Virus record (IMG/VR): IMGVR_UViG_3300050120_000077
Span: 1-61,866 of that record
DNA: 61,866 nt
Direction: 5' to 3' (one strand)
Source of the DNA: a virus
In this document: piece by piece, positions 853 to 30,806 of the stretch
Position numbering within the stretch: the first letter of the stretch is position 1
Layout of the letters: each line of letters opens with the position of its first letter
Made by a program: the position numbers and the translations under genes
The notes under the pieces: model-generated
Databases searched by the model: none
Told to the model about the DNA's origin: nothing
The model's input: only the letters and a program-made list of their open reading frames with translations

Positions 853-886
853 GTGAAACCCTCCTGTTGGGGTAAGATTTACCGCG

Positions 887-923: not shown

Positions 924-991
924 TCGATTCGTCAAGCAGAACTTGACAGCGAAAAAACAGTGCCTCTCCCACGAAAATAGGAGTTCCGAAT

Positions 992-3906: not shown

Positions 3907-3941
3907 CGCCATCCATCATCCCACCAACCGAGGACTGTAAA

Positions 3942-9233: not shown

Positions 9234-9234
9234 C

Positions 9235-10227: not shown

Positions 10228-10237
10228 GGTGATGCCT

Positions 10238-13200
10238 CTATCTGGTCCAGGGCTGTTTGGATTCTCGATCCCGCTCAAAGCGGCGCGACTTATCGGCCTG
10301 ATCGTAATCGGTGCCACGCACCACCCGAGCGAAGGGAATACGGCTCGGTTCTTTGTCCGGGGTGCCTTCGGCGGCGTTCGCCACAAACCCGGTGACGTTC
10401 CGGCCGAATCGCATGGCCGTGTCAAGGCCCGAGTAATAACTAAAAACTTCCCGCAAATCTTCTGGATACACGTCGAGCGCACCGGAATGTTTACGGTCAC
10501 CGCCGGTCACCTCGTTGATGCCCTTGGCCGCCCACTTCCATCCGTCGCCGGTGTTGACGCGGCCCGATTCCGACCGGGGCCCACGCTGGAACGCGGGGTC
10601 TTTGTGGATCGGAATGCCGTTCCAGTTTTCGTTGGTATAGGCATGAACCAGTGGTCGGGTCAGCTCCGGAGAGATTTGAGCGACCAAATTGTCCTCGGCG
10701 CCGAACGGCGTTAGCGCCTCAAGCCCCGATTTGAGCACCGCGCCGAGCGCCTTCCGGACACCGTGTGGGTCTTTCGTGAACACCATGGCAGCCGCAGCCT
10801 GCCCGATCATCAGCGGGAACGCCCAATTGTACGGCATCGGAATGTGGATCGGCTGCGGGCGGTCCTTTGCGTCCTTGTCGATCCCGAACGGATTCAACAG
10901 CGTGAAGGTCAGCGACTTTTCCCACCATGCCATCTTGTCGGCGAAGGGGATGCCGTCCTTGTCGTTGCCGCCGACGAGATAATTGAACATGCCGGACAGG
11001 AAGCCCGCGAGCACCGAGGAGCCGAACACCATCCGCATAATGCGAGACCGTGCGACTGCGCTGGTCATCCGGGCGCCGGTGTTGATGGCAACCCCGGAGA
11101 ACGGCGCGAACAGGCTCATGATGTTCTTCCAGCGTCCGGACTGCTGGAAATCAACCGTGGCATCACGCGCGACGATGGCGGCTTGCTCGGGTGTCTTGCC
11201 CTGCTTGCGGGCTGCGGCATAGGCCGCGAGCCGCAGCGCATTGTCGAGCGCGTTGGTCACGGTGTCCATCGCCTCGACGCCGGCCTGCCACTTGGCTTTG
11301 GCATCGCTCCACGTCGAATTGGTGAGCGAGTTCAGCTTCGATTCCATGTGCTCGCGGACCAAGCTGGTGTCGCGCATCTGGCGGAACATCATCGCGCCGC
11401 CGGCACGACGCATTTCATCCCAATAACGCTGTAGCTCGGCAATCGCCGCGTTATCGTGCGTGACCCCTTTGTTCGAAGCGAAGATCGCCTTCGAGGCGTT
11501 CCCGAGGAACGGCGTCGAATCCGCGATGTAGCGGCCAACGCTGTGATCGCCGCTCTCCTTCTGCTCGAACGAATTTAGCGTGCCTTCGATGGGATATCGG
11601 AACAGGAAATGCCGGAGCAAAAATTCTGGTGAGTAGTGCGTCCACGACGCCTTGAGCTTGTTCTGGATGTTGATGACAAACTGCAGCATGCCCAGCCCAT
11701 CGGCGTGCATGCGCTTGATGGCATCGGCGAGCTGCGAGTTGTCGAACAGAAGGTAATGCACGTTGCCGCCGCGCTTAAAGGCGACCGCACCGGGTTCGCT
11801 CCGGAAATTGCTGTCATCGACGGTCCGCACCAAGCCAGTGCGCTTGTCCAATTCCTTTTTCGGCCGACCGCGATCAAACCGAACAAAATTCTTCTGATCG
11901 TCCGGATCAAGCTCATGAAGCGCGTTATCGACGGTTTGCAGATATTCGTTCTTCTTGGCGCGCTCGATGGTGCGATAGGCCTGATCGATCAGGTTCGCCA
12001 GCGGATTGTCCGCCTTGGATTTGCGGCCGAAGGCGCTGCGGACTTCCGGGCCACGGACATTGAACTTCGGCGAGCGACCGGGCGGCGCTTCCTCCGGCGC
12101 ATCTTCCCAGCCCGACAACGGCGCGTAATGGTCGTATGTCTGGCGCCACCCGGCGACGGTGGTGGCCGATTCCAGCCCGCTATTCACCATCAGATTGTTG
12201 ATGTAGTCGCGGATCGCGTCTGCGCGCTGGTCAATCGCACGGACGACGGCGGGATCGTACCGGTTGAGGATTTCCTGCGCGGTGTCGTTCGACATACCGG
12301 AGCCACGACCGAGCACCATATCCGGCGCGCCGAACATACTGTCCATGTTGATCTTGTCCATTTCCCGGTTTCGCTCGGGAGCGTGGAGCGCGTAGAGGAT
12401 GTCGCCGGCCTGATCCTTGTCGATTTTGTTCGCCTTCAACAGGTCGATCATCGGATCGAGTAGGTTCTTGTTGAAGTCGTTGGCCTCGGCCGCGACCTTG
12501 CCGGGGAACAGCCGCTTCTTCTGGTAGAATGCCTGGCTGTCCGGAAGCTCGCCCGCCAGCCGCGCCTCGATGATGGTCTCCAGATTTTGCACTGGCCGGT
12601 TGAGGTTCTGGTAGCCCTCGATCAGCTTTTGCTTGGTGTTCGCCAACCGTTCGTCGATGGCGGCGCCGACGCTATCGCGCAGCGGGCCGTTGAACGGGTT
12701 TTGCACGGACGCCAGTGCGTCTTCCTGCTGCGGAAATGGTGTGCCGAGCAGCGGCGGCGTGCGATCAGCAAAGCCACCCTCGAATGCCTTGGCGAAAATG
12801 TCCTCTGCGGTCTGGAAGCCGAGACCATTGACGCCGTTGCGGATGCGGTTGGTCATGTCGGTGAGCCGGTGATACCAGCGGCGCACGCCGACGTGCAGGT
12901 TCTGCGCCTTTCCGAATTTCTCCCGCTGATGGCGATAGAGTTCGAACGCGACGGCGCGGACTTCGTATCCGGCCATACCCTCGATGGTCGCCTTGTCGAA
13001 CCCGATCAGCCCGTTGTCGATCGCCCGGCGCAACCGCGGCGTTTCCTTCGCCATCAAGGTTCGCTCGCGCGCCGTCTGCAACAGGTGCTCGATGGCGTGA
13101 TATGCCTCATGGAACGCCGTCGATACCGGGTTGCCGCTCTCCAGGGAAAGCTCGATGAGCTGCTTCGCTGGCCGGTAGAGCCCGACGACGCCCTTGTATT

Positions 13201-16200
13201 TAGCCGCTACGTCGCCCCAGCCGCCCTGGTCGATGTGGTCGATCCGGCCGGTGTGAAACTTGATCTGGATGTTCGGAACCATCTTGCGGACGGCCTCGGT
13301 CAACAGGCGCTCCAGCTCGGCGGCCTTGGCCGCTCCGCGCTCGGTCAGCGGCATCACCTGTGCCAACGCCTCGGGGCTGGGCGGCGGCAGCTCGGTGCTC
13401 GTTGCGGGCTCGTCCTTCTTGGCAAGCTGGGCTTCGAGGTCACGAACCTGCGAGGCGAGGGCGTCGATCTCGGGCTCGCCCTGAAAGCGCGCCTTCTCCT
13501 TGCCCTCGGATTCCCGCAGGAACTTCTCGGCGGTCGCGACGCGATCCTGCGCGTAGGCCAGATCGGCATCGAAACCGGACAGGATGCTCTCGATGGAGCG
13601 GGCCATGCCCAGCGCGGAGGTGCCGTGAACCGTGGTCTCGGCGTCGCCGGTCCGCTTGAGCATCAGGTCATTGCCGGCGGCCCCCTTGTTCTCGGTGAGG
13701 ATCTGGCGGACGTGTGCACGGAGCGGGAAGCCGGAAATCTCGCCGATGGTAAGGTGGCGGCCGATGTTGGCGGTGGTCGTTACCTTGTCGAGTTGGGTGA
13801 GCAGGGCTTCGCCGAAATCGACGCGCTTGTCATAGGTGGACTTGCCCACGGTCCCGACGAAGTTATCGCCGCTCAAATCCTTGCGCTGCTTGATATCCTG
13901 CTGGATATTGACTTCGCGCGCACCATAATAGTCGAGCGTCGAACGGGCTTCGGCCTGCCGACGTTTCAGCGCATAACGCTCGCTCTCGAAGGCGGACTTG
14001 CGGCGCTCGGAACGCTCAAGGTCTTGCTTCAACTCCGTCAGCCGCATCAGGCGCGGATCGTTGGTGGTCATCGCCTTGGCCTGCGCATACTGGCTGGCCT
14101 CGCCGAGGTCGTCCATTTCGCGCATCGAGGGATCGCCCTCGAAGAAGCCCTGAATAAACCGGGCCTTCTTCTCCATCAGGCCCCACATGGTGGAATCGTA
14201 GGTGCCCTTAGTCGAGTAATCGTTGATCTCGATCTCGGGGTTCCAGTTGCCCTGGCGCAAGCCGCGACCGTTGCGTTGCTCGTCGTCGGACGGATACCAG
14301 AGCGGGTCGAGGTTGTGGATCGCAGCGAGACGGCGCTGGGCGTTAACGCCGGTGCCCATCTTCGCCGTCGATCCGATCATCAACAGCACCTTGCCGCTGT
14401 TCATGTCGTTGAACAGTTTCTGCTTGGCGATGTGGGTCTTGTACTCGGAAATCAGCGCGATTTTGTCGCGCGGGATGCCGCGGCGGACCAGCTCGGCGCG
14501 GATATAGTCGTGAACCGGCAAGCCCCGTTTGGCGGAAATGCCGAGGTTCGAGAAGATCATCTGCGTGGCGGGGCCGACGTCAACCGGCGCCGACATATCG
14601 TAACCGCCCTCGCGCGGTTTGTAGAATTTGGTCCGAGCCGTCGCCTTCATGGTGTTGAAGACGTTATCGATCAGCAGTTCCAGCTTCGTCGGATAGTCCG
14701 GATCGACGTCGCCGCCAACGAGACGGATATCGATCGCGGCGTGTCGGCCGTCGCCAATCACGGTCAGCATGATGTCGTCGCCGGGCTTCGGCTTGCCGCC
14801 ACGGTTCTTGATGGCGACCATTCGCGCGGCGAGACCGTCCTGATATTCGATCAGCGCGGGCGACTTCTCGGCCAGATTCATCGAGCGTTTGCCGCCCTTG
14901 ATCTTCGGTCGCGTCACATACTGTTCGAGCTGGCGCGAGGTCACCACATCCATTACCTGACGGACCATCGCTGACAACTCGGCGACGTTGATGAACTTCG
15001 CGAACCGCGCGACGGGCTTGTAGCCGCCGGCCGCGTCCTGTTCGAGTTCGGAAACCTCCTCGCCGAAAGCACCGGCCCAGGCATCGAACGCCGATAGCTG
15101 CCGTTCGGCCAACTCGCCCGGCTGGAGATACCGGCTCACGGTGTAAAGCTCGGCCATGGTGTTGGTGACCGGCGTTCCAGAAGCGAGCACGAGGTTGCGG
15201 CCGGGATTGCGTTTTTCGAGGAGCTTGGTCTTGACGTACAGATCCCATGCTTTGCCCGAGCCCTCCGGCGTGATGCCCTTGAGGTTCGACATCTGCGTGG
15301 AGAAGTCGAGCTTGCGGAACTCCTGCGCCTCATCGACGAACAGGAAGTCAACTCCCATCTCGTCGAAATTGAACACGTTGTCGCGGCGTCGGTTGCTCTT
15401 GCCGGAAAGGCGCTGCTCAAGCCGCTCGATCTGCTTCTCGATGCGTGAACGCGTGATGCGGCTGTCCTGACCGCTTGGCATTTCCGCCAGCGCGTTCCGG
15501 TACCGATCCAGCTCAACGCCGATCATCTCGTCGGCGAACTCATCCGAAACCGGGATCATGCCGAAATTGGTGTGGGTGATGATGACGGCATCGAGGTCAT
15601 CGAGCGCGACGTTCGCCATGAACTGCTTGCGCCGCTCGGCATGGAAGTTCCGATCATCAGCCACGGCAATGCGGGCGGTCGGGTATTGCTCGTAAAACTC
15701 CTTGGTGAACTGCGCGAGCATGTGGTTCGGGATCGCGTACATCGGCTTTTTCACCAGCCCGAGGCGGCGCATTTCCATGCCGGAACCGATCATCGCCGAG
15801 GTTTTTCCAGCACCCACGGCATGCGCCATATAGGTGTTGCCCTCTTGGATGATGCGCGAAATCACCCGCGTCTGATGCGGACGCCATTTCCACCCCGAAG
15901 CGATGCCCGGCGTGGTGAGGTACGATCCATCATACTGCCGCACCACGAGATTGTTGTAATTCTCGTTGTAGTAAGCGGCGAGGGGATCGGCGCGGGCATC
16001 GTCGGCAAACACCCATCCCTTGAACTTCTCCTTGATGGTGGTGAGTTTGTCCTGGGCGTCCTGTGTCGCGGTGACATTGAGGATGCGCTTATCGTCAGCC
16101 TCATCGTAGATTTTCGGAGTGATGTGATTGAGGGCATCACTCATGAGCGCGGTCGCATTGCGCCGCGAGGTACCGAACGTGGTGATCGAGGCGACCGAAT

Positions 16201-19200
16201 CCGTGTCGCCGGAAACCGTCCATTGCGCCAGCACCGGGATGTACTTCGCCCGGAAGGTGGTCAGGCCGAGTTCTTCCTTGGCAAACTGCTCGACGATCTT
16301 CTCCGGAATCCACGGCATGCCGAGACCGGCATAGATTTGCGCGGGCGCCAGCGGCGCCGGCTGCGCGGCTTCCAGCGCCTCGACGTTGCGACGAAGGAGC
16401 GGATCGCGGGCGGCTTCGGCCTTCGCCAACGCCAGCTTCTTCCGGACGTTGCCGGAAAGGTAGGCTTCCTTGGTCTCCCATGTGTCCTTGGTGCCGGGCA
16501 CGCGGTAGATGCGGTCGCCCAGCGCCTCGATGGTCTCGCTCTTGCTCTTGTCGGCCAGAGCGCCGATGGCGTCGAGGTCGAGCCGTCCGCGCTGGTTGAG
16601 CACGTAGAGCGCAGCATCGTTGATCGAGTTGATCTTCGGCGGCGTCTCGCGGGTGATGACGTTCTGGCTGAACACCAGTCCCTTGGAGGCTTTGCCGCTG
16701 GCGTCGTCGTAGTGCTCGATGGCGCGCAGCCGGTAGGCTTCCTGATCGTCCATGAACGGCTCGATATTCGGCCGCTTATCGATGATGTTGTCCTTCATAT
16801 CCTCCGGATCGAAGGAGCCTTCGTCGAATTTGATACCGGCGGTCGCGGCGGCCTCGCGCGCCTCCTTGCGCGCGCGCGCGATCTCAGCCATCGGCCGGTT
16901 GGCGTCGAGCAGTTTGGTGGCATCAAAGGTGCCCTCGTTGAAATCCAGCCCCGAATAGCGGGCTTCCTCCCGCGCCTCGGCGCGCGCCGATTCCTGCTGC
17001 ACCACGCTCGGCCGGCGAAGCTGGATCTCGGCCTTGTTGATCGGGCCATATTTCCCGACAAAGGCGTCGTAGGTGACGTTGAGCTTCTTGCGGGCCTTGT
17101 CGCCAGCGTCTCGGTCGTCGTTGAGGTCGGCTGCGTATGTCTCGCGCAGAGCATCGCGGATCGGGATCAGCCCTCGGATGCGCTCGATTTGCTCGGCGCT
17201 CTTGCCGCCCTCGATGCCCTTGCCGCGGCGCGCAACGGCGACACCGGCGCCGGACTGGATCTGGCGCAGCGAGCCATCCTTGTCGACGTAATAGCTGCCC
17301 TGCTTCTTCTCGGTGTGATCGAAGTCAACCTCGGCGCGCTCGGTCGGCGTCTCTGGAGACTTCATCACATTGCGCGGCAGCTTGGCGACCGCGACCGCGA
17401 GCGCGTCTTTCAGGTCGAAGTTGTCCCACGCCTTGACGCTGTAGCGGCCCTCGTAGAGCTTGTCGGCGAAGTCACCTTTGCCCAGCACCATTTCCGGATG
17501 CTCGGCGAAGTAGCGGCTGATCTGGCCCTTGACTGGCTTGCCGTCAGGTCCAGGCAGGGACACTTCGGCGGTTTCAGTCCACGAGCGGTCAGCCGCCGTC
17601 TCGCCCGGCATCAGCTTGCGGAGCACCACGATGTCAGTGGTGACCTCGGTACCGGCGTTCTTCTTGAAGGCGTTGCCGGGGAGGCGGATGGCGCCGATGA
17701 ATTCAGCCCGGTCGGCGAGGTAGTTGCGCGCGCTGGGGTCGATCTTGTTCATCGTGCCAGCGCTGGTGACGAACATCAGCAAGCCGCCGGGGCGGACACC
17801 ATCGAGCGATTTGGCGAAGAAATAATCGTGCAGCAGGAAGCTGTGCTTCGCATACTTGCTGTCGGAGTGGATCGCGATGTCAGCGAACGGCGGGTTGCCG
17901 ATCGCCAGATCAAAGGCGTTCTCCGGAAGCGGCATGCGGGTGAAGTCGTCGCGGCGGATACCCCACTTCGGATAGAGCAGGCTGGCGATCCGGGCCGAGA
18001 CGTGATCGAGCTCGATCCCCTGGTAGGTCGATTTCTCGGCGACGTCCGGCGGCATCAGGCCGGGGAAATTGCCCACCCCCATGCCGGGCTCGAACACGCT
18101 GCCGCCCTCGAACCCGAGTTGCCGCGCGGCTTTCCACATGCCGTTGATGATGTCTTCGGAGGTATAGTGCGCGTACTGGATCGAGCGGCGCGCGGTGTCG
18201 TATTCTTCCGGCGTCAGTTCGGACTTAAGGCGGGCGCCGATGACCTCGAAGCCCTTACCGAACTCACCATCGGCATCCGGAAATGCGTTCTTGAGGCCGC
18301 CCCAGCCAACGTAGCGCGCGAGCTTCTGTTGTTCTTCGAGGGTAGCCGGTCGATCCAGTTTCTCGATGATGTTCGAGAGCGTGATGGCGTTGAGGTTGTC
18401 TTCGGCCTTGCGCTTTGGTCCACGATCCTCATCAAGCCCACCCGGATCGATGTGGAAGTTTTCGCCCTTTACTCGGCCGGCCGCTCGTTGGTCAGCGCGT
18501 TCGCTTCGTCCTGCCTCGGTGTCAGCATGTCGTCCGGAAACTCGAACATCATCGCTTTCACTTCCTCCTCCGCTTCCCTCGCTGCTTGCAAGGTCGGCTG
18601 GCCGTCCGGACCCTTCGGAGCGTCCTTCGTCAGTTCCAGAAACATCCGGTGCGCCTCGTTCGCCTTCAACTGGACGAACCGCTCCAGCTCCCCGGCCTTC
18701 TTCAAGGCTCGGTACATCTTCGGGTTCTGATCCTGCATCGCGACCAGATACGGATGACGAAATTCCATCGTTCGCCTCCTGGGCGGGTTTCAAATCTAAC
18801 AGGTCGGTCTGCTTGTGACCATCGCCAAAAAGGCCGTCATCGGCCGGTTGCTGCGCTGCGGTTGGCTTGAGCGGCTGGTCGGACTTGCGCTGGGCCAGCT
18901 CACCATCGCCGATTGCCTCGGTGCCGGGGATTGTGGACTGCGGCTTGGCGGCAGGATTGTGGAACGGGTCGCTTACCATCCTCATGAGATCGTGGCGTTG
19001 CTCGCCCGTGAGGTTGTCGTACTTCTGTTTGTTGAGCGGACCTCCGGTGATGCCGGCCATCAACTTGAATGCAAGATCGGTATCATGGGTGCGACCGTCC
19101 GCGTGCATCGGCAGCTTATGCAGCACTTCCGCCCACGTCGGCGCTTCCGCAATCTCATTGCGATGCTGCTGTTGCGCCGTGACGTAGCCCGGTTTCACCA

Positions 19201-22200
19201 TCTGCCGGATTTGCGCGTCGAACTGTTTCCAATATTCCGGCTCGGTCGCCTTTACATCGGCTGGTGTCTGCGCCAGCACCTTGCGCGCGGCACGGCCAGC
19301 AGCCAAGACGCCGTCACGGTCTCCGGCTTCAACTGCTTCCTCGATCTTATCGAGGGCGGCTTCCATCTTGCGGGAGGCGTCCTCTTTCCCCGGCGCTGGC
19401 GGCGGATTGGCTCGAATGAACTCCTTGATGAAGCCTTGTAGTACGGGATTCGGTATGTCCGACATGCCATAGCTAAGGCCGCTCTCTGTCGGGCTCGATG
19501 CACCGGAGATATAGACGACATCGCTATAAGCCGTCAGGTCGAGATATTGACCGCCGCGCTTGTTGCGAAGCTTCCACATCCAAGTGTCGCCGTTCGGCTC
19601 CGTCTCGAATTTCATGGCGCGTGGTTGGATCTGATCAACATGCGCGGCGAGAGACTGTTTGAACTTTTCAAACAGATCATCCGGCAGCTTCTTCGGATCG
19701 ATATTTTTCAGTGCATCGACCGCGCCAGCAGGCGAGCGTGGGATCGCGATGATGTCGCCACCCTGGTATCCACGCGCGCCTTTCTCGATCAGCGCGCTCA
19801 CCAGTTGATGTCGAGACCGACCTTCCGGAAATATCCCAAGGCCCTTCGCGTAGTGCTGGATGGTGTCTTCTTGGGCACCCTCGAACGATGCCTGCGGGTC
19901 CATGAAGCTATCGTAGAACTTTCGATCAGCTTCGGACCTATCGTCATCATCATCTAAACCGGCTTCTGCGCTCCCTTCACCGGCGGCAGTTTCAGGTTCG
20001 GCGCTACCAGCGGTTTCGCGTTCGGCGTCGGCGTCGGCGCGTCCGGTGTCGGACTGCTGATCGTCTTCGCGATCGACGGCGCCGGTATCCTCGGCATCTT
20101 CGCCAGTTTGGCTGCTGCTTGGAACGACGCGTGCTTGGCTGCCAGCACCGGACCGCTCCTGCTGAGATTCGGCGCGGCCTTCGTCAGCGCGTGGCTCGCT
20201 GCTATGTGCCCCTTCGCTTCCGGAGCCCAATATTTCTTTGACTTCGGGGCCATAGGCTTCCTCTGCTTGGGCGACGGTAAGGTCGCCCTGGTTGACGGCA
20301 TTCTCGATGACGGCGTACTGGAAGGCGATGCCGGGTGGCATTTCCGGGTACTCGGCGAGCAGCTCGGCCGCGCGCGCGATATCGACCGGCTTTACCTTGT
20401 CGGCCATCGGACCAAGCGCATCCTCGATGGCCTCGTGGTGCGCGGCGGTTACTTCTTCGGGTTCTTCGCGGCCTTGCGCGCCAGTATCCGGAACGCGGTC
20501 GCCATGGCTTTGCGCTTCTTCTTTTGCTCCGGCGTCCCGTTCACCTTCGCCTTGTCGTTCAGTGACGACGCCATTTCGAGGTGCTGGCTTGGCTTGAATT
20601 GCATCGGACACGTCCTTTCCGTAGGTGTCGCTCATCAGTTGCGGTGTGATGCCGTAGTCAGCGTCTTCGCTCACCATCCGCATGGCGGCTTGCTCGACGG
20701 CGTCGTCGAGCGGCAAGTTTTCGTCCGCCATGATCGCGGCGGCGCGGGTCTTCACGTCCTCGGCGAGGTGCTTGTAGTCTTCGTCCTTGTCGACGTCGGC
20801 GCGGTGATCGTCGATTGCTACCTGCCGGGCGTGCGCGCTCGATTCCTCATCGGCTTTGCGCTCGCGCTTGGTCGGGGTCGATTCCTCACCCTCGGCCTTC
20901 TTGGCGTTGCCGCGGTTGAACTCCTCGTCGATCGCATCGAGCAGATCGCGGGTTGTCGTGGTGGCGTGCTCGCTCCCGCGCAGGTATCCGGCTTCCTCGG
21001 CCGCCTCGCGCATGTCGTCCAGCTTCATGCCAGTGGGACGCACCACGCCGAAGAAGCCCTTGCGGCCGGGGATCTGCACGCGATGATCGCCGGCCAGATC
21101 GAGAGCCTTCAATTCCGGATGTGGCTCGATGCCGCCCTTGGAGGCGATGAACTGCATCAGCGTCATCGGCTCGGTGTTGGCGGCGCGGGGTTTCGCGGGC
21201 GCCTTGGCCGGCGCGGCCGCGGCTGGTTCGGCCTGGGCGATTTCGTTCGGTCCAGGCTGGCTGAAACGCTGGGTGTGATCGCCGGTAGCGAGCCAATTCT
21301 TGAACTCGTCGGGGCCGAGCGCGGTGACGGCGCCCATGCGCGGCGTGGCGTCGTCGGCATAGGAATCGCGGTAGGCGCGGACCGCCGCTTCCGGATGTTC
21401 GAAGCCGACCATGATCTTGTGCTCGTCGAAGCTATCGTTCGACGGATCGCGCTGGTCGATCATAAATACATGCGGGCTGGTCGGCTTCGGACCGATGAAG
21501 ACGTCGAGGTGGTCGCCGTCGGCGCCGACGGTCCCCTTGATCTTGCCGTAGGCGACCGGCATGCGGACTTCCCACGGCTTGCCGTCAGGATCGGTACCGC
21601 GCCGGATCTGGCCTACGCCGGTCTCGATGCTGATGCCGTTCTTGCCCGCAAGGTCGAGGTGCGGCAGCTCGAGATGTCCGTGCTGGTAATTCCCGGCCAC
21701 GGCCTGCGCCGGTGTCGGCTCCTTGACGATCTCTGACGCCTTGAGCACGTCATCGACGGTTTTTGCCACAACCGGAGCGTCGCGTTTTCCGGTCGCCGAC
21801 GGTTCCTCTGCAACCTTATCCGGAGAGGACGCTGTAGCGGTACCAGCAGTTTCGGTTGTGTCGTTGGATTCCGTCGCTTCGGCCAACCGCGACGCGCGCG
21901 CGCGCGGCGACATATCGGCGATCTCCTGTTCGGAGAATCCTGCATCGAGCAGGGTTTCGTGGTCTGTCTTGGGGGGAGTGGCGGCTTCGCCGGTGCCCGG
22001 CGGTGCGGGTGGCGGTTCATCCGGAGGCGGCGCGCGGCCGGTGTCCGGACCGGGAAGCCCGCGGTTGTCCGGCATGACTTCGCCGTCGATGGGCTCGGCA
22101 GCGGGGAGGGTGCGCTGGCGCGCTTCGCCGGCGCGGCGGATGAAATCGGCGATGTCGTCGGGCGAGGATATGTCGCTCGGCTTCGGCTTCGGGATGAAAT

Positions 22201-23413
22201 GCCCGGCCGCGCCGAGCACGCCGCCGGTGATGAGGTTGGCGATGATCCGCTTGGCGTCGGGCGAGTAGCCAGCGTCCTTGTCGTAATATTGCTGGGCGAC
22301 CTTCGTGAGCAGATATTCCTGCGCCTCGCCGACGGTCGCGAACGCCGCGCCGCCCTCGATGGCGTGTTGCGCGAGGATCGCAGCGCCCGAAGATCCGAGC
22401 TTTGCGCTGACGGCGGTGATCGGCCGCAGCACGGTACCGAGCGGCAGCGTGCCGAGCGCAGCACCGATAGCACCGCCCCAACCGGCCGCCTTCGCAGCAT
22501 CGTCGTCGGATGCGCCCTTGGCCTTGGCGGCCTCGAAGGTCGCACCTGCGGTCGACGTGCCCATGCCGGCGGCGCCGAGCGCGATAGCAGCTTCCGGACC
22601 GGCGAGCGCGCCAGCGGCGAGATATGTGGCGGCGGCACCGACACCGGATCCGATCTGGCCGCCAGCGCTCGTCTTCTCCTGATCCGTCATCGGGATCGCG
22701 TCGGCAGCCTGTTTGATGGTGGTGCCGGTCTGATACTTCGCCTGCTCTTGGATCGGCTTGGCCGCCTCGGCGTTCTGAGCCGAGAACTTGGCACGGAGCT
22801 GGTCGGATTCCGCCTGGGCGTCGCCGCCGCGCGCGATGCGCTGCAAGGCGGCATTGAAATCCATCTGCAAGCCGCGGTCGCCGATGGTTCGCATCGTCTG
22901 ACCCATCAGCTTCGCACGCTCGGATGCCGACATGGTTCCGGCGTTCGCAAGCTGGTCGATAAGCGCGGTGCCTTCCGGTGCTACGGGCTTCGTCGGAGAA
23001 AGCGCAGCGAGTCCTTGCACGCTGCTCCCGGCTTGCTCCAAGGGTGCTCGGAGCAAGCCCTTAGCACCGGCCATAATCTGGCCGCCCACGCCGAGCGGCG
23101 GCGCCGCCGGTGGCGGCACCGGCGTTCCAAAGCTGGACAGGTCATCCGTCGAGGGTTCGGGCTCGGGATCGACCGGCGTGCCGTACTTCGCCAGATCCGG
23201 CGCTTTCTCGGGTGCCTCGGGCGCTTCGGCCGGCGACGAGAAATCGACGGTCGGTACCGGCGGCGATGGTGCGATCGGTGTGAGCTTGCGCGCGAGGCGC
23301 TCGGTCAGAACACCAGCGTCATCGGAAAAATCCGGAGCATCCTGCTGGTACTGACGCAGGAGGCTATCGCGAAGTGCGGCGTTGCCATCGCCGAGCGCAT
23401 CATCGAGGGCCAT
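10238..23413 (-). CDS. giant polyvalent virion/ejection protein (4,391 aa): InPase-like + N6-adenine MTase + SF2 helicase (DarB-like) + zincin peptidase, flanked by hydrophobic segments
   Basis: Uninterrupted 13,176-nt ORF. Its ATG shares 1 nt with the upstream stop (TAATG). Motifs are listed in the sub-features. Confidence 0.9.
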   Translation of the reverse strand: MALDDALGDGNAALRDSLLRQYQQDAPDFSDDAGVLTERLARKLTPIAPSPPVPTVDFSSPAEAPEAPEKAPDLAKYGTPVDPEPEPSTDDLSSFGTPVPPPAAPPLGVGGQIMAGAKGLLRAPLEQAGSSVQGLAALSPTKPVAPEGTALIDQLANAGTMSASERAKLMGQTMRTIGDRGLQMDFNAALQRIARGGDAQAESDQLRAKFSAQNAEAAKPIQEQAKYQTGTTIKQAADAIPMTDQEKTSAGGQIGSGVGAAATYLAAGALAGPEAAIALGAAGMGTSTAGATFEAAKAKGASDDDAAKAAGWGGAIGAALGTLPLGTVLRPITAVSAKLGSSGAAILAQHAIEGGAAFATVGEAQEYLLTKVAQQYYDKDAGYSPDAKRIIANLITGGVLGAAGHFIPKPKPSDISSPDDIADFIRRAGEARQRTLPAAEPIDGEVMPDNRGLPGPDTGRAPPPDEPPPAPPGTGEAATPPKTDHETLLDAGFSEQEIADMSPRARASRLAEATESNDTTETAGTATASSPDKVAEEPSATGKRDAPVVAKTVDDVLKASEIVKEPTPAQAVAGNYQHGHLELPHLDLAGKNGISIETGVGQIRRGTDPDGKPWEVRMPVAYGKIKGTVGADGDHLDVFIGPKPTSPHVFMIDQRDPSNDSFDEHKIMVGFEHPEAAVRAYRDSYADDATPRMGAVTALGPDEFKNWLATGDHTQRFSQPGPNEIAQAEPAAAAPAKAPAKPRAANTEPMTLMQFIASKGGIEPHPELKALDLAGDHRVQIPGRKGFFGVVRPTGMKLDDMREAAEEAGYLRGSEHATTTTRDLLDAIDEEFNRGNAKKAEGEESTPTKRERKADEESSAHARQVAIDDHRADVDKDEDYKHLAEDVKTRAAAIMADENLPLDDAVEQAAMRMVSEDADYGITPQLMSDTYGKDVSDAIQAKPAPRNGVVTERQGEGERDAGAKEEAQSHGDRVPDTGAQGREEPEEVTAAHHEAIEDALGPMADKVKPVDIARAAELLAEYPEMPPGIAFQYAVIENAVNQGDLTVAQAEEAYGPEVKEILGSGSEGAHSSEPRADEGRAESQQERSGAGSQARVVPSSSQTGEDAEDTGAVDREDDQQSDTGRADADAERETAGSAEPETAAGEGSAEAGLDDDDDRSEADRKFYDSFMDPQASFEGAQEDTIQHYAKGLGIFPEGRSRHQLVSALIEKGARGYQGGDIIAIPRSPAGAVDALKNIDPKKLPDDLFEKFKQSLAAHVDQIQPRAMKFETEPNGDTWMWKLRNKRGGQYLDLTAYSDVVYISGASSPTESGLSYGMSDIPNPVLQGFIKEFIRANPPPAPGKEDASRKMEAALDKIEEAVEAGDRDGVLAAGRAARKVLAQTPADVKATEPEYWKQFDAQIRQMVKPGYVTAQQQHRNEIAEAPTWAEVLHKLPMHADGRTHDTDLAFKLMAGITGGPLNKQKYDNLTGEQRHDLMRMVSDPFHNPAAKPQSTIPGTEAIGDGELAQRKSDQPLKPTAAQQPADDGLFGDGHKQTDLLDLKPAQEANDGISSSVSGRDAGSEPEDVPSLEEGRGAGAVRPVEGERGAPDVSGTDEGRSEGSGRPADLASSEGSGGGSESDDVRVSGRHADTEAGRSERADQRAAGRVKGENFHIDPGGLDEDRGPKRKAEDNLNAITLSNIIEKLDRPATLEEQQKLARYVGWGGLKNAFPDADGEFGKGFEVIGARLKSELTPEEYDTARRSIQYAHYTSEDIINGMWKAARQLGFEGGSVFEPGMGVGNFPGLMPPDVAEKSTYQGIELDHVSARIASLLYPKWGIRRDDFTRMPLPENAFDLAIGNPPFADIAIHSDSKYAKHSFLLHDYFFAKSLDGVRPGGLLMFVTSAGTMNKIDPSARNYLADRAEFIGAIRLPGNAFKKNAGTEVTTDIVVLRKLMPGETAADRSWTETAEVSLPGPDGKPVKGQISRYFAEHPEMVLGKGDFADKLYEGRYSVKAWDNFDLKDALAVAVAKLPRNVMKSPETPTERAEVDFDHTEKKQGSYYVDKDGSLRQIQSGAGVAVARRGKGIEGGKSAEQIERIRGLIPIRDALRETYAADLNDDRDAGDKARKKLNVTYDAFVGKYGPINKAEIQLRRPSVVQQESARAEAREEARYSGLDFNEGTFDATKLLDANRPMAEIARARKEAREAAATAGIKFDEGSFDPEDMKDNIIDKRPNIEPFMDDQEAYRLRAIEHYDDASGKASKGLVFSQNVITRETPPKINSINDAALYVLNQRGRLDLDAIGALADKSKSETIEALGDRIYRVPGTKDTWETKEAYLSGNVRKKLALAKAEAARDPLLRRNVEALEAAQPAPLAPAQIYAGLGMPWIPEKIVEQFAKEELGLTTFRAKYIPVLAQWTVSGDTDSVASITTFGTSRRNATALMSDALNHITPKIYDEADDKRILNVTATQDAQDKLTTIKEKFKGWVFADDARADPLAAYYNENYNNLVVRQYDGSYLTTPGIASGWKWRPHQTRVISRIIQEGNTYMAHAVGAGKTSAMIGSGMEMRRLGLVKKPMYAIPNHMLAQFTKEFYEQYPTARIAVADDRNFHAERRKQFMANVALDDLDAVIITHTNFGMIPVSDEFADEMIGVELDRYRNALAEMPSGQDSRITRSRIEKQIERLEQRLSGKSNRRRDNVFNFDEMGVDFLFVDEAQEFRKLDFSTQMSNLKGITPEGSGKAWDLYVKTKLLEKRNPGRNLVLASGTPVTNTMAELYTVSRYLQPGELAERQLSAFDAWAGAFGEEVSELEQDAAGGYKPVARFAKFINVAELSAMVRQVMDVVTSRQLEQYVTRPKIKGGKRSMNLAEKSPALIEYQDGLAARMVAIKNRGGKPKPGDDIMLTVIGDGRHAAIDIRLVGGDVDPDYPTKLELLIDNVFNTMKATARTKFYKPREGGYDMSAPVDVGPATQMIFSNLGISAKRGLPVHDYIRAELVRRGIPRDKIALISEYKTHIAKQKLFNDMNSGKVLLMIGSTAKMGTGVNAQRRLAAIHNLDPLWYPSDDEQRNGRGLRQGNWNPEIEINDYSTKGTYDSTMWGLMEKKARFIQGFFEGDPSMREMDDLGEASQYAQAKAMTTNDPRLMRLTELKQDLERSERRKSAFESERYALKRRQAEARSTLDYYGAREVNIQQDIKQRKDLSGDNFVGTVGKSTYDKRVDFGEALLTQLDKVTTTANIGRHLTIGEISGFPLRAHVRQILTENKGAAGNDLMLKRTGDAETTVHGTSALGMARSIESILSGFDADLAYAQDRVATAEKFLRESEGKEKARFQGEPEIDALASQVRDLEAQLAKKDEPATSTELPPPSPEALAQVMPLTERGAAKAAELERLLTEAVRKMVPNIQIKFHTGRIDHIDQGGWGDVAAKYKGVVGLYRPAKQLIELSLESGNPVSTAFHEAYHAIEHLLQTARERTLMAKETPRLRRAIDNGLIGFDKATIEGMAGYEVRAVAFELYRHQREKFGKAQNLHVGVRRWYHRLTDMTNRIRNGVNGLGFQTAEDIFAKAFEGGFADRTPPLLGTPFPQQEDALASVQNPFNGPLRDSVGAAIDERLANTKQKLIEGYQNLNRPVQNLETIIEARLAGELPDSQAFYQKKRLFPGKVAAEANDFNKNLLDPMIDLLKANKIDKDQAGDILYALHAPERNREMDKINMDSMFGAPDMVLGRGSGMSNDTAQEILNRYDPAVVRAIDQRADAIRDYINNLMVNSGLESATTVAGWRQTYDHYAPLSGWEDAPEEAPPGRSPKFNVRGPEVRSAFGRKSKADNPLANLIDQAYRTIERAKKNEYLQTVDNALHELDPDDQKNFVRFDRGRPKKELDKRTGLVRTVDDSNFRSEPGAVAFKRGGNVHYLLFDNSQLADAIKRMHADGLGMLQFVINIQNKLKASWTHYSPEFLLRHFLFRYPIEGTLNSFEQKESGDHSVGRYIADSTPFLGNASKAIFASNKGVTHDNAAIAELQRYWDEMRRAGGAMMFRQMRDTSLVREHMESKLNSLTNSTWSDAKAKWQAGVEAMDTVTNALDNALRLAAYAAARKQGKTPEQAAIVARDATVDFQQSGRWKNIMSLFAPFSGVAINTGARMTSAVARSRIMRMVFGSSVLAGFLSGMFNYLVGGNDKDGIPFADKMAWWEKSLTFTLLNPFGIDKDAKDRPQPIHIPMPYNWAFPLMIGQAAAAMVFTKDPHGVRKALGAVLKSGLEALTPFGAEDNLVAQISPELTRPLVHAYTNENWNGIPIHKDPAFQRGPRSESGRVNTGDGWKWAAKGINEVTGGDRKHSGALDVYPEDLREVFSYYSGLDTAMRFGRNVTGFVANAAEGTPDKEPSRIPFARVVRGTDYDQADKSRRFERDRESKQPWTR
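10778..11119 (-). other. C-terminal hydrophobic/TM region, aa 4099-4212
   Basis: MSLFAPFSGVAINTGARMTSAV, IMRMVFGSSVLAGFLSGMFNYLVGG, NWAFPLMIGQAAAAMVF. Confidence 0.6.
12914..13261 (-). other. zincin-like metallopeptidase module, aa about 3385-3500
   Basis: HExxH motif STAFHEAYHAIEHLL (HEAYH = aa 3435-3439, nt 13097..13111). Confidence 0.6.
14234..15883 (-). other. SF2 (SNF2/DEAD-like) helicase module, aa about 2511-3060
   Basis: AHAVGAGKTS (aa 2534), FLFVDEAQEF (aa 2694), LASGTPVTN, STAKMGTGVN, QRNGRGLRQGN (aa 3046). Confidence 0.8.
17612..18463 (-). other. N6-adenine DNA methyltransferase module, aa about 1651-1934
   Basis: Motif I VFEPGMGVGNF. Motif IV LAIGNPPFADI (NPPF = aa 1840-1843, nt 17885..17896). 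Confidence 0.8.
21350..21694 (-). other. inorganic-pyrophosphatase-like (InPase) module, aa 574-688
   Basis: GNYQHGHLELPHLDLAGKNGISIETGVGQIRRGTDPDGKPWEVRMPVAYGKIKGTVGADGDHLDVFIGP. Recognised from memory as the module described in polyvalent proteins. Confidence 0.55.
22193..22666 (-). other. Gly/Ala-rich hydrophobic (glycine-zipper-like) region, aa about 250-407
   Basis: GGQIGSGVGAAATYLAAGALAGPEAAIALGAAGMG...AAGWGGAIGAALGTLPLG...ITGGVLGAAGHF. Confidence 0.6.
23117..23197 (-). other. two DL[SA]x[FY]GTPV motifs at the N-terminus of the giant protein (aa 73-81 and 91-99)
   Basis: PDLAKYGTPVDPEPEPSTDDLSSFGTPVPPP. Confidence 0.9.
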
Positions 23414-30796: not shown

Positions 30797-30806
30797 GATG
30801 GTGCGG

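What the first reader, a model, noticed from the sequence alone, without database searches (positions are those of the whole stretch)
10238..23413. 4,391-aa polyvalent protein occupying about a fifth of the genome: DarB-like MTase-helicase fused to pyrophosphatase-like and zincin modules between two hydrophobic blocks
A single uninterrupted 13,176-nt ORF lies between the tail/fibre genes and the lysis cassette. These motifs were read directly:
- two DL[SA]x[FY]GTPV motifs (aa 73-99)
- a Gly/Ala hydrophobic block (aa about 250-407)
- GNYQHGH...DGDHLDVFIG (aa 574-688), which I recognise as the inorganic-pyrophosphatase-like module of polyvalent proteins
- MTase motif I FEPGMGVGNF and motif IV GNPPF (aa 1840)
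- helicase motifs GAGKTS (2534), DEAQ (2694), SGTP and QRNGRGLRQGN (3046)
- zincin HEAYH (3435)
- hydrophobic helices at aa 4099-4212

The MTase-then-helicase order is that of the phage P1 anti-restriction protein DarB. The fusion of many enzymatic modules fits the polyvalent-protein concept described for phages and conjugative elements. Giant virion proteins of similar size exist in Burkholderia Bcep22-type podophages; this last point is from memory and unverified. Roughly half of the protein (aa 690-1650, 1935-2510, 3060-3380, 3500-4090) carries no motif I can name and could hide further effector domains. The hydrophobic flanks suggest it also forms or traverses the ejection channel.
Basis: partly seen in the sequence, partly recalled or inferred. 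Interest (0 to 1): 0.8.

Follow-up and report, generated by a model that had tools for sequence, protein, structure and literature searches.

The report
Giant DarB-like polyvalent phage protein
One 4,391-residue gene, a fifth of an uncultivated short-tailed-type phage genome, is a new but recognisable member of the known giant "DarB-like" multi-enzyme proteins that related phages carry in the virion and probably inject with their DNA to blunt host defences.

Summary
ORF 10238..23413 (minus strand) is one uninterrupted 4,391-aa gene. The identical protein occurs on three independent assemblies.

Supported modules:
- InPase: Pfam E 7e-41.
- N6-adenine MTase then SF2 helicase: PHROG "DarB-like antirestriction", 1,764 bits; about 41% identical to Burkholderia phage Bcep22 gp75; collinear with P1 DarB.
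- LPD38 at the C-terminus.
- The HEAYH zincin rests only on a conserved HExxHxxE motif.

The gene closes the virion operon. Tail-fibre genes lie upstream and an endolysin starts 10 nt downstream. Homologues in Bcep22 and JC1 are virion proteins by mass spectrometry, according to the literature.

Verdict: a new member of a known kind, the phage-type polyvalent proteins. The phage backbone is PTXU04-like, not Bcep22-like, and the N-terminal third is almost orphan.

Extras:
- Two confidently folded domains (aa 755-915, 985-1065) have no PDB match.
- The protein has no cysteine, like Bcep22 gp75, PTXU04 gp25 and N4 vRNAP.
- The N-terminal DL[SA]x[FY]GTPV motif recurs three times in the tail of a separate lytic transglycosylase (44876..45610). 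That domain is fused to the giant protein in Bcep22.

Interest is moderate.

The parts
10238..23413 (-). Giant polyvalent protein gene, 4,391 aa, no cysteine
   Evidence: ORF list and translation. One coherent coding frame. Identical product on three independent contigs. Cys 0/4391 against 1.1% in the other ORFs.
23117..23197 (-). Two copies of the short linear motif [PD]DL[SA]x[FY]GTPV (aa 73-81 and 91-99) in a Pro-rich N-terminal tail. Looser D[FL]S motifs lie at aa 28-30 and 57-59.
   Evidence: Five copies in the whole six-frame translation against 0 in 200 shuffles. Relatives carry two tandem lineage-specific copies at the same place.
22184..23086 (-). N-terminal conserved domain containing the Gly/Ala-rich, moderately hydrophobic block (aa about 110-410)
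   Evidence: Only 4 homologues among 5.8 billion clustered proteins. Invariant Gly/Ala/Pro/Tyr positions. Hydropathy and Gly+Ala content.
21290..21709 (-). Type-I inorganic-pyrophosphatase-like domain (InPase), aa 569-708; the Asp-rich DGDHLD stretch is present
   Evidence: Pfam PF18823, E 7.4e-41, full-length match. Matches the C-terminal domain of the PDB 9b41 'gp19 Portal' chain, E 2e-17.
20669..21151 (-). Uncharacterised folded domain A (aa 755-915)
   Evidence: AlphaFold pLDDT above 90. About 60-70 homologues in an exhaustive search of 1.84 billion representatives. No PDB fold match. The only BFVD match at E <= 0.001 is named 'Large polyvalent protein associated domain-containing protein'.
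20219..20461 (-). Uncharacterised helical domain B (aa 985-1065)
   Evidence: pLDDT above 90. About 15-30 homologues. No PDB fold match.
18794..18949 (-). Conserved linear motif of about 50 aa in the linker before the MTase (aa 1489-1540: ..IPGTEAIGDGELAQRKSDQPLKPTAAQQPADDGLFGDGHKQTDLLD)
   Evidence: 39 proteins match it, including stand-alone proteins of 68-312 aa, at 50-68% identity. Function unknown.
17549..18196 (-). N6-adenine DNA methyltransferase domain, motif I FEPGMGVGNF then motif IV GNPPF (aa about 1740-1955)
   Evidence: BLASTP to P1 DarB 91-299, 31% identity, E 2e-22. PADLOC mad2 1.7e-8. Pfam Eco57I 9e-5, below its cut-off. 41% identical to Bcep22 gp75.
13931..16054 (-). Superfamily-2 helicase/translocase, motifs GAGKTS, DEAQ, SGTP and QRNGRGLRQGN (aa about 2454-3161)
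   Evidence: BLASTP to P1 DarB helicase lobes, E 3e-15 and 1e-11. 41% identical to Bcep22 gp75. Weak Pfam DEAD, Helicase_C and ResIII matches. Precomputed Pfam WH_1, DUF8437 and Helicase_dom.
12719..13336 (-). Putative zincin-like metallopeptidase, HEAYHAIE at aa 3435-3442 (region aa about 3360-3565)
   Evidence: HExxHxxE, plus an upstream Gly and Tyr, is invariant in 7 sequences (the window plus 6 homologues down to 25% identity). No Pfam, PDB-profile or Foldseek support. A weak hhalign match places the same motif layout on P1 DdrB 850-881.
10241..12607 (-). Conserved, mostly alpha-helical C-terminal module (aa 3603-4391) with motifs LYALHAxERN, GSGMS, YVPLxG, AFGRxSKAxNP and WTHYSPxF
   Evidence: 25% identical to Bcep22 gp75 3718-4457. 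26% to large proteins of Stx2 phages and to Ruegeria phage 45A6. phrog_14770, 616 and 10691. 13-17 metagenomic homologues carrying different N-terminal effectors. AlphaFold mean pLDDT 64, no PDB match.
10973..11041 (-). Most hydrophobic helix (aa 4125-4147), immediately before LPD38
   Evidence: A helix sits directly before LPD38 in Bcep22 gp75 (4260-4278) and PTXU04 gp25 (1882-1900). Atu_ph08 gp21, which ends in LPD39, has one at a similar distance from the C-terminus (4588-4618).
10328..10936 (-). LPD38 domain (aa 4160-4362)
   Evidence: Pfam PF18857, E 6.8e-20.
44876..45610 (-). Separate 244-aa lytic-transglycosylase-like protein. Its C-terminal tail carries three copies of the motif found at the giant protein's N-terminus (aa 181-189, 211-219, 235-243).
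   Evidence: phrog_4067 transglycosylase, 1.8e-11. tblastn to 'lytic transglycosylase' and 'putative internal virion protein'. Motif copies. Tail motif kept in homologues at 52-65% identity.
23413..24771 (-). 452-aa upstream gene of unknown function; its stop overlaps the giant gene's start (TAATG), which suggests translational coupling
   Evidence: No Pfam or PHROG match.
24775..25911 (-). Tail fibre or spike with a Peptidase_S74 intramolecular chaperone
   Evidence: Pfam PF13884, 1.6e-9.
9235..10227 (-). Endolysin (GH19-like), starting 10 nt after the giant gene's stop
   Evidence: phrog_181 endolysin, 6.6e-42. Weak Glyco_hydro_19 match. Junction sequence.

Best explanation
The gene encodes a virion-packaged, host-injected polyvalent protein of the DarB-like kind.

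Shown here: it is one real ORF at the end of the late virion operon. From N- to C-terminus it contains:
- a Pro-rich tail with two short docking-type motifs
- a Gly/Ala-rich domain
- an inorganic-pyrophosphatase-like domain
- at least two uncharacterised folded domains, separated by acidic linkers
- an N6-adenine DNA methyltransferase followed by an SF2 helicase, homologous to P1 DarB and Bcep22 gp75
- a putative HExxH peptidase
- a conserved helical C-terminal module of about 800 aa that ends in a hydrophobic helix plus LPD38

Inferred mechanism:
1. A few copies are built into the capsid, with the C-terminal module and/or the N-terminal motifs as address.
2. The cysteine-free chain is threaded through the tail with the DNA at infection.
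3. Inside the cell the MTase-helicase acts in cis on the entering genome to evade type I-like restriction, as P1 DarB does.
4. The pyrophosphatase-like domain removes PPi or a nucleotide signal.
5. The peptidase may cut the chain into separate effectors.
6. A separate lytic transglycosylase carrying the same motif probably travels with it to open the peptidoglycan. In Bcep22 gp75 that function is fused to the giant protein itself.
For: - Real, intact ORF.
- Domain matches: InPase E 7e-41 and LPD38 E 7e-20; phrog_10089 'DarB-like antirestriction' at 1,763.6 bits; 41% identity to Bcep22 gp75 over about 1,600 aa and 25% over the C-terminal module; collinear homology to P1 DarB.
- Homologues JC1 gp69 (51 unique peptides) and Bcep22 gp75 were found in purified virions, and such genes sit before the lysis module (paper PMC9144972).
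- Same placement here: adaptor, fibre genes, the 452-aa gene, the giant gene, then the endolysin. The start overlaps the upstream stop and there is a 10-nt gap to the endolysin.
- PTXU04, whose capsid protein is 49% identical, has at the same position a 2,197-aa protein that also ends in a hydrophobic helix plus LPD38.
- Cysteine counts: 0/4391 here against 1.1% in the other ORFs of the window; 0/4602 in Bcep22 gp75, 0/2197 in PTXU04 gp25, 1/4877 in Atu_ph08 gp21 and 0/3500 in N4 vRNAP. That N4 vRNAP is injected comes from the literature.
- The polyvalent-protein framework and its predicted roles for InPase and the metallopeptidase come from PMC5512222.
- The N-terminal motif is shared with a separate transglycosylase. 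Bcep22 gp75 carries a fused SLT domain.
Against: - No experimental data exist for this phage. Packaging, injection, methylation, helicase activity and proteolysis are all inferred from homologues.
- The Pfam matches for the MTase and helicase are below the curated cut-offs. The assignment rests on PHROG and pairwise homology plus motifs.
- The zincin has no significant profile or structure match.
- No DarA, DdrA, DdrB or Ulx homologue is present, although P1 needs such partners to package DarB.
- How P1 DarB itself protects DNA is not settled (my own knowledge).
- The hydrophobic segments are too weakly hydrophobic to be called transmembrane helices.
Confidence: 0.65

Rival explanations
1. Its main role is mechanical. 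It would be the phage's ejectosome or internal core protein: the N-terminal Gly/Ala block and the C-terminal hydrophobic helices build or line the trans-envelope conduit for DNA, as T7 gp14-16 do, and the enzymatic domains are secondary cargo. This overlaps with the best explanation and does not exclude it.
For: - No other obvious large internal virion or ejection protein was recognised in the late operon.
- A hydrophobic helix sits directly before LPD38 in Bcep22 gp75 and PTXU04 gp25, and Atu_ph08 gp21 has one at a similar distance from its C-terminus. PTXU04 gp25 gave no Pfam match other than LPD38.
- Absence of cysteine fits passage through the periplasm.
- A lytic transglycosylase is fused in Bcep22 gp75 and tagged with the same motif here. 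T7 gp16 likewise has an N-terminal transglycosylase (my own knowledge).
Against: - Hydropathy maxima of 1.3-1.5 are below what is usual for membrane-spanning helices.
- Foldseek found no similarity to solved ejection proteins. Phage DEV gp72 appears only at E 9.6.
- There is no homology to the N4 vRNAP terminal regions beyond the HExxH motif.
Confidence: 0.2
2. It is not packaged. It would be a late cytoplasmic enzyme that methylates and remodels progeny DNA before packaging, or that serves replication or recombination.
For: The MTase and helicase domains could act on replicating DNA. The authors of the Atu_ph08 paper raised a replication role for its homologue.
Against: - Homologues are detected in purified virions.
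- The gene is the last gene of the structural operon, with its start overlapping the stop of the upstream gene, which has no known function.
- According to Iyer et al., InPase and LPD38 occur in phage-type polyvalent proteins likely to be packaged.
- A cytoplasmic enzyme would have no evident reason to lack all cysteine.
Confidence: 0.1
3. The single ORF is an artefact. Several adjacent genes would have been fused by assembly or sequencing error, as the fragmented gene calls in related contigs might suggest.
For: In related contigs L002 and L003 the homologous region is called as 10-15 short genes.
Against: - In L002 and L003 the matches are collinear along the whole protein and hop between the three frames. 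That is the signature of indel errors in those assemblies, not of separate genes.
- Three independent assemblies give the identical 4,391-aa product here.
- Codon-position GC is coherent throughout.
- Isolated phages have intact homologues of 4,515-4,877 aa.
Confidence: 0.03

Closest known systems
Burkholderia phage Bcep22 gp75 and JC1 gp69 ('DarB-like antirestriction protein', PHROG 10089)
   Same: - Size: 4,602 and 4,515 aa against 4,391 aa here.
- About a fifth of a 60-kb-class podophage genome, last gene of the virion module, ahead of the lysis genes.
- MTase-helicase core 41% identical; C-terminal module with LPD38 25% identical.
- Cysteine-free.
- An HExxH motif after the helicase.
   Different: - gp75 has an N-terminal SLT transglycosylase and an LPD3 domain. 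This protein has neither.
- This protein instead has an InPase domain and an N-terminal 1,630 aa with no detectable similarity to gp75.
- The surrounding genes and the capsid, portal and terminase genes are unrelated.
- Here the endolysin follows directly. In Bcep22 two reverse-strand genes come first.
Phage P1 DarB (2,255 aa)
   Same: Same order of N6-adenine MTase then SF2 helicase, with three collinear BLASTP matches, E 2e-22 to 1e-11.
   Different: - P1 DarB is half the size and has 9 cysteines.
- It lacks InPase, the zincin and the LPD38 module.
- Its packaging depends on DarA, Hdf, DdrA, DdrB and Ulx. Homologues of DarA, DdrA, DdrB and Ulx are absent here; Hdf was not tested.
- P1 is a myovirus.
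Agrobacterium phage Atu_ph08 gp21 and the PBC5-like phages (4,877 aa, 'DarB-like')
   Same: One giant ORF with InPase, then MTase, then helicase: 42%, 38.5% and 35% identity respectively. Nearly cysteine-free. The host is alphaproteobacterial, as the window's host may be.
   Different: - gp21 has fused Hydrolase_2 and Peptidase_M15 cell-wall domains, PBECR1 and LPD39.
- It shows no similarity to the window protein's N-terminal, middle or C-terminal modules.
E. coli phage PTXU04 gp25 (2,197 aa, unannotated)
   Same: - Same position in a phage whose capsid (49%) and portal (28%) are homologous to the window's.
- Ends in a hydrophobic helix plus LPD38.
- Cysteine-free.
- N-terminus carries five [ILVF]D[LF]S repeats.
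   Different: No Pfam match for an MTase, helicase or InPase domain, and no BLASTP or phmmer similarity to the window protein.
Coliphage N4 virion RNA polymerase gp50
   Same: - A giant (3,500 aa), cysteine-free protein that is encapsidated and injected.
- Layout of an N-terminal injection region, a central enzyme, and a C-terminal region with an HExxH peptidase-like domain needed for encapsidation.
   Different: The central enzyme is an RNA polymerase. hhalign found no homology beyond 16 columns around HExxH, probability 2%.
Polyvalent proteins of phages and conjugative elements (Iyer, Burroughs, Anand, de Souza, Aravind 2017)
   Same: Several unrelated catalytic domains in one polypeptide. 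InPase, adenine MTase, SWI2/SNF2-type ATPase, zincin-like peptidase and LPD domains are all parts of their catalogue.
   Different: - The N-terminal domain (aa 1-410) matches no Pfam LPD model and has only 4 homologues in the database searched.
- Domains A and B and the linear motif at aa 1489-1540 also match no Pfam LPD model, but have 15-70 homologues each.

Membership tests
P1 DarB-type MTase-helicase antirestriction proteins | N6-adenine DNA methyltransferase domain with the SAM-binding motif I followed by catalytic motif IV (NPPF/Y) | tested here: met
   FEPGMGVGNF at 1774 and GNPPF at 1839. 31% identical to P1 DarB 91-299, E 2e-22. PADLOC mad2 1.7e-8. Pfam Eco57I is only 9e-5, below its cut-off.
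P1 DarB-type MTase-helicase antirestriction proteins | SF2 helicase with motifs I, II, III and VI, C-terminal to the MTase and collinear with P1 DarB | tested here: met
   GAGKTS, DEAQ, SGTP and QRNGRGLRQGN. BLASTP 2454-2856 against P1 778-1217, E 3e-15, and 2991-3161 against 1445-1608, E 1e-11.
P1 DarB-type MTase-helicase antirestriction proteins | Packaged into the capsid and delivered with the DNA | not testable with these tools
   Only indirect: homologues JC1 gp69 and Bcep22 gp75 are virion proteins by mass spectrometry, and the gene lies in the late structural operon.
P1 DarB-type MTase-helicase antirestriction proteins | Accessory Dar system (DarA, Hdf, DdrA, DdrB, Ulx) encoded by the phage | tested here: not met
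   tblastn of P1 DarA, DdrA, DdrB and Ulx against the window gave only chance-level short matches, E >= 0.56. Hdf was not tested. The literature reports the same absence for the Bcep22-like phages.
P1 DarB-type MTase-helicase antirestriction proteins | Protects the infecting DNA from type I restriction in cis | not testable with these tools
   Needs plating on restriction-proficient and restriction-deficient hosts.
Bcep22 gp75-type giant virion proteins (PHROG 10089) | Strong profile match to the family and extensive pairwise identity | tested here: met
   phrog_10089 at 1,763.6 bits. 41% identity over 1,650 aligned columns in two BLASTP segments.
Bcep22 gp75-type giant virion proteins (PHROG 10089) | Single ORF above 3,500 aa, about a fifth of a podophage genome of roughly 60 kb, closing the virion module ahead of the lysis genes | tested here: met
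Bcep22 gp75-type giant virion proteins (PHROG 10089) | N-terminal lytic transglycosylase (SLT) domain within the giant protein | tested here: not met
   No SLT match in the window protein, against SLT at 74-165 in gp75. A separate SLT-like ORF lies at 44876..45610.
Bcep22 gp75-type giant virion proteins (PHROG 10089) | C-terminal LPD38-containing module | tested here: met
   PF18857, E 7e-20 here and 5.5e-36 in gp75. 25% identity over 3603-4329.
Bcep22 gp75-type giant virion proteins (PHROG 10089) | Belongs to a Bcep22-like (Lessievirus) genome | tested here: not met
   No Bcep22 neighbour (the 12 CDS between gp66 and gp80 that were tested) has a tblastn match in the window. The capsid and portal match PTXU04 instead, and the terminase is nearly orphan.
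Phage-type polyvalent proteins (Iyer et al. 2017) | Two or more unrelated catalytic domains in one polypeptide | tested here: met
   InPase, MTase and helicase are supported.
Phage-type polyvalent proteins (Iyer et al. 2017) | Marker domains restricted to phage-type members (InPase, LPD38) | tested here: met
   Both pass the Pfam cut-offs. The restriction to phages is stated in PMC5512222.
Phage-type polyvalent proteins (Iyer et al. 2017) | Encoded among late or packaging genes | tested here: met
   Terminase, portal, capsid, adaptor, fibres, the giant gene and the endolysin all lie on the minus strand.
Phage-type polyvalent proteins (Iyer et al. 2017) | Zincin-like metallopeptidase for self-processing | tested here: inconclusive
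   HExxHxxE is invariant in 7 homologues, and the predicted helix, strands, HExxH helix and Glu-bearing helix fit a zincin core. Against this, there is no Pfam match, no PDB profile match and no Foldseek match. hhalign to P1 DdrB is weak, probability 3%.
N4 vRNAP-type injected giant proteins | Sequence homology of the terminal injection and encapsidation regions | tested here: not met
   BLASTP found nothing. hhalign aligned only 16 columns around HExxH.

The most novel reading that the evidence does not exclude
The short motif [PD]D[LF][SA]x[FY]G(TPV) may be a virion-incorporation or ejection address tag. It occurs twice at the giant protein's N-terminus and two or three times at the extreme C-terminus of a separate lytic transglycosylase. 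It would couple the two proteins non-covalently to one docking site, for example the portal or the inner capsid.

That would rebuild in trans the transglycosylase-giant fusion seen in Bcep22 gp75 (and in T7 gp16). The cysteine-free giant protein would then be an all-in-one ejectosome that its own peptidase releases as effectors after entry.
Probability: 0.3. Interest if true: 0.6.

Novelty: new member of a known kind. Interest (0 to 1): 0.35.

Why it matters
It adds a well-resolved, apparently complete example of a giant injected polyvalent protein from an uncultivated phage lineage whose capsid resembles that of PTXU04. The MTase-helicase core and the LPD38 end module therefore move between unrelated podophage backbones, while the N-terminal third is replaced wholesale.

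For anyone studying anti-restriction or protein ejection it gives concrete targets:
- two confidently folded domains with no structural relatives
- a conserved 50-residue linker motif
- complete absence of cysteine, shared with N4 vRNAP
- a short motif shared with a separate transglycosylase, which could be the first handle on how such giants are addressed to the virion

None of this changes the known picture of what these proteins are.

Tried and rejected
1. Nucleotide search of the gene against 50,697 phage records found no match. The similarity is at protein level only.
2. The NCBIfam scan gave only sub-threshold matches.
3. Foldseek of the C-terminal 1,061 aa (model pLDDT 64) and of aa 755-1160 (pLDDT above 90 in two domains) against PDB found nothing at E <= 0.001. 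No function could be assigned to these parts.
4. A profile of the zincin region against PDB sequences gave only spurious coiled-coil matches.
5. Homology to the N4 vRNAP C-terminal encapsidation region is not supported.
6. The idea that the phage is Bcep22-like is rejected on terminase, capsid and neighbouring genes.
7. A second homology search with an alignment of the C-terminal module added only three proteins.
8. Proteins of about 1,000 aa that carry domain A have no Pfam domains at all.
9. A covariation test of the shared motif failed. IMG/VR holds no relative of the N-terminal domain. The metagenome and IMG/VR loci for the transglycosylase are too short to reach the giant gene. Only conservation of the tail motif could be shown.
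10. I considered reading the N-terminal motif as a beta-clamp-binding motif and dropped it. The position usually occupied by Leu is Ser, Lys or Gln (from memory of the QL[SD]LF consensus; not tested).
11. A first genome-contig scan found nothing. The alignment-based scan gave one Xanthobacteraceae MAG, which is only a weak hint about the host.

Full report

Yes. ORF 10238..23413 lies on the minus strand, begins with ATG and encodes 4,391 residues.

- The window has a 127-bp terminal direct repeat, so it is a circularly closed assembly of 61,739 bp. The gene is 21% of it.
- GC at the third codon position is 0.7-0.87 along the folded parts. It falls only in two Asp/Glu/Gly/Ala-rich linker stretches (aa 901-1200, 1501-1650). 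This fits one frame throughout.
- The start has a GAGGA ribosome-binding site and overlaps the stop of the upstream gene (TAATG). The stop is followed after 10 nt by the next ATG.
- The identical 4,391-aa product is called on three independent contigs, including a Logan assembly of SRR35930614 and a JGI metagenome.
- Two diverged relatives (L002, L003) have the region called as many small genes. The matches there are collinear along the whole protein and hop between frames. That points to indel-ridden assemblies, not to separate genes.
- The hydrophobic blocks are real but only moderately hydrophobic.

**2. What the parts are**

| Region (aa) | Assignment | Evidence |
|---|---|---|
| 569-708 | InPase, PF18823 | E 7e-41; also matches the C-terminal domain of a solved phage portal chain, 9b41 |
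| 1539-3394 | DarB-like MTase-helicase core | phrog_10089 "DarB-like antirestriction", 1,763.6 bits |
| 1633-2125, 2211-3330 | Same core | 41% identical to Bcep22 gp75 |
| 1749-1954, 2454-2856, 2991-3161 | MTase and two helicase lobes | collinear BLASTP to P1 DarB, E 2e-22, 3e-15, 1e-11 |
| 3435-3442 | HEAYHAIE, putative zincin | see below |
| 3603-4391 | Conserved C-terminal module | see below |
| 4160-4362 | LPD38, PF18857 | E 7e-20 |

- The Pfam matches to Eco57I, DEAD, Helicase_C and ResIII are all below their cut-offs. The MTase and helicase calls therefore rest on motifs plus family and pairwise homology. Precomputed annotation of the identical protein lists the newer families WH_1, DUF8437 and Helicase_dom.
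- The HEAYH motif sits in a segment whose HExxHxxE, together with an upstream Gly and Tyr, is invariant in seven homologues down to 25% identity.
- The AlphaFold model places the motif in a helix that follows two strands and precedes a Glu-bearing helix. Bcep22 gp75 has an HEAFH at a comparable place.
- No Pfam, PDB-profile or Foldseek match supports a zincin fold. hhalign to the peptidase-like region of P1 DdrB is weak. I treat the peptidase as plausible, not shown.

**3. The 'unnamed half'**

- Aa 1935-2510 and 3060-3330 are part of the core conserved with gp75.
- Aa 3603-4391 is a conserved, mostly helical module.
  - It is 25% identical to gp75 and about 26% identical to large proteins of Stx2-converting phages and Ruegeria phage 45A6.
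  - It occurs in metagenomic proteins behind quite different effectors: InPase alone, a Strawberry-notch-type helicase, or SLT.
  - Strongly conserved motifs are LYALHAxERN, GSGMS, YVPLxG, AFGRxSKAxNP and WTHYSPxF.
  - Its model (mean pLDDT 64) has no PDB neighbour.
- An exhaustive search with aa 755-1530 found 103 proteins in 1.84 billion representatives and resolved sub-modules.
  - Aa 755-915 and 985-1065 fold with pLDDT above 90.
  - Neither has a PDB match. The only BFVD match at E <= 0.001 is named 'Large polyvalent protein associated domain-containing protein'.
- A linear motif of about 50 residues at aa 1489-1540 is shared with 39 proteins, including stand-alone ones of 68-312 aa.
- The N-terminal 410 residues have only four homologues among 5.8 billion clusters and none in 50,697 GenBank phages.
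- Further effector-like domains probably exist, but none could be named.

**4. Context**

The whole late operon is on the minus strand, in this order:

- terminase, 42192..43994
- portal, 38829..41333
- capsid, 32387..33379
- SU10-type adaptor, 29888..30847
- fibre genes with Collar and Peptidase_S74 domains
- a 452-aa unknown gene
- the giant gene
- a GH19-like endolysin, 9235..10227, phrog_181 E 7e-42
- a spanin-like ORF

The phage is nevertheless not a Bcep22-type virus.

- Its capsid is 49% and its portal 28% identical to E. coli phage PTXU04. Its terminase is almost orphan. None of Bcep22's neighbouring genes has a match.
- PTXU04 has, at the same position, a 2,197-aa protein with no sequence similarity to this one. 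It nevertheless ends in a hydrophobic helix plus LPD38.
- Atu_ph08 gp21 (4,877 aa) shares InPase, MTase and helicase but has different ends.
- The modules are therefore shuffled between podophage lineages, as the polyvalent-protein paper describes.
- The only relative found in genomes is in a Xanthobacteraceae MAG next to chromosomal genes. This is a weak hint of an alphaproteobacterial host.

**5. How it most likely works**

- Shown: the ORF, its domains, its homologies and its position.
- From the literature: homologues are in the virion, P1 DarB is packaged and protects entering DNA from EcoB and EcoK, and N4 vRNAP is injected.
- Inferred: this protein is packaged and then ejected with the DNA. 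The MTase-helicase then acts in cis against restriction. The InPase clears PPi or a nucleotide signal. The peptidase may release the modules.
- Circumstantial support for translocation comes from cysteine counts. Cysteine is absent here (0/4391 against 1.1% in the other ORFs, so about 48 would be expected). It is also absent from Bcep22 gp75, PTXU04 gp25 and N4 vRNAP, and nearly so from Atu_ph08 gp21. In the MAG relative the two polyvalent ORFs have one cysteine each, while the 418-aa gene between them has seven.
- A mainly structural, channel-forming role is the chief rival. It is not exclusive of the above.

**6. A lead found on the way**

- The N-terminal motif [PD]DL[SA]x[FY]GTPV occurs five times in the six-frame translation of the window, against none in 200 shuffles. 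Two copies are in the giant protein. Three are in the C-terminal tail of a 244-aa protein (44876..45610) upstream of the terminase, and the last copy ends that protein.
- The copies differ at synonymous sites, so selection acts on the peptide.
- The 244-aa protein is a lytic transglycosylase-like enzyme.
- Its homologues at 52-65% identity keep two or three copies of PD[LF][SA]x[FY]G, again with one at the very C-terminus, while the linkers between them diverge.
- Relatives of the giant protein's N-terminus carry two tandem copies of lineage-specific variants: LDFSAQA, DF[KG]SFGRE and LTFDDLIP. PTXU04 gp25 starts with five [ILVF]D[LF]S repeats. Bcep22 gp75 starts with NDLSRLSLPSFPGTP.
- In Bcep22 gp75 the transglycosylase is fused to the giant protein. 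The shared motif may therefore be a common docking or address signal that links the two proteins here. I could not test covariation, because the loci I could retrieve are too short.

**7. Verdict**

- It is a new member of a known kind, the DarB-like giant polyvalent virion proteins, in a phage backbone where this core had not been seen among isolates, and with a nearly orphan N-terminal third.
- Interest is moderate (0.35). The shared motif and the cysteine-free signature are the parts most worth following up.

Noticed in passing
window 44876..45610 (-) and 23117..23197 (-): The 9-residue motif [PD]DL[SA]x[FY]GTPV occurs three times in the C-terminal tail of a separate lytic-transglycosylase-like protein and twice at the giant protein's N-terminus. 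There are 0 copies in 200 shuffles, and the copies differ at synonymous sites. Transglycosylase homologues at 52-65% identity keep the tail motif (L010, L013, L014).
   Followed up: partly
window 10238..23413 (-); L001 7375-21180; L008 22690-29283; L009 10524-21026: Cysteine is completely absent from the giant protein (0/4391). It is also absent from Bcep22 gp75 (0/4602), PTXU04 gp25 (0/2197) and N4 vRNAP (0/3500). Other ORFs of the window have 1.1% Cys and P1 DarB has 9.
   Followed up: partly
window 1..127 and 61740..61866: A 127-bp exact terminal direct repeat. The window is a circularly closed assembly, so it is probably a complete phage genome of 61,739 bp.
   Followed up: yes
window 18794..18949 (-): A linear motif of about 50 residues (..IPGTE.IG.GELAQR....PLKP...Q.P.D.GLFGD..KQTDL.D) is shared with 39 proteins, including stand-alone proteins of 68-312 aa. 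It lies in the disordered linker before the MTase. Function unknown.
   Followed up: partly
L002 10001-21954 and L003 316-9637: Related metagenomic phages carry a collinear homologue with nearly the same module order at 30-50% identity. Their genes are broken across all three frames, which most likely reflects indel errors in those assemblies. L003 has an extra DdrB-ParB domain.
   Followed up: partly
L012 (MAG Xanthobacteraceae SPRUCE 263, JBEKGX010000017.1) 4..12925: A relative in which InPase is a separate ORF. The zincin plus C-terminal module (47% identical) follows a Strawberry-notch-type helicase (AAA_34 and Helicase_C_4) in a 2,718-aa protein. Chromosomal genes (GMC oxidoreductase, MFS transporter) lie downstream, which suggests a prophage or a remnant of one.
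   Followed up: partly
L010 and L011 (JGI Ga0209489_100006, 475,698 bp): Two identical 20.6-kb loci lie 62,956 bp apart on one 476-kb contig. The spacing is about one phage-genome length, which suggests a concatemeric assembly or tandem prophages of a related phage.
   Followed up: no
window 46659..46733 (-): A single tRNA-Gly (anticodon TCC).
   Followed up: no
window 8570..9070 (-) and 8703..9233 (-): Two overlapping minus-strand ORFs lie in different frames just after the endolysin, and one has a weak Rz-like spanin match. They may be an embedded spanin pair. No holin was identified.
   Followed up: no
window 15572..18730 (+), 12587..14974 (+), 20108..21736 (+): Long ORFs of 542-1,052 aa lie antisense to the giant gene. 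They are probably stop-poor shadows of a high-GC coding region rather than genes. They were not examined individually.
   Followed up: no
window 4520..5797 (+) and 53036..54049 (-): An Erf-like single-strand annealing protein and a primosomal-protein homologue. No integrase was seen in the limited set of ORFs that was scanned.
   Followed up: no
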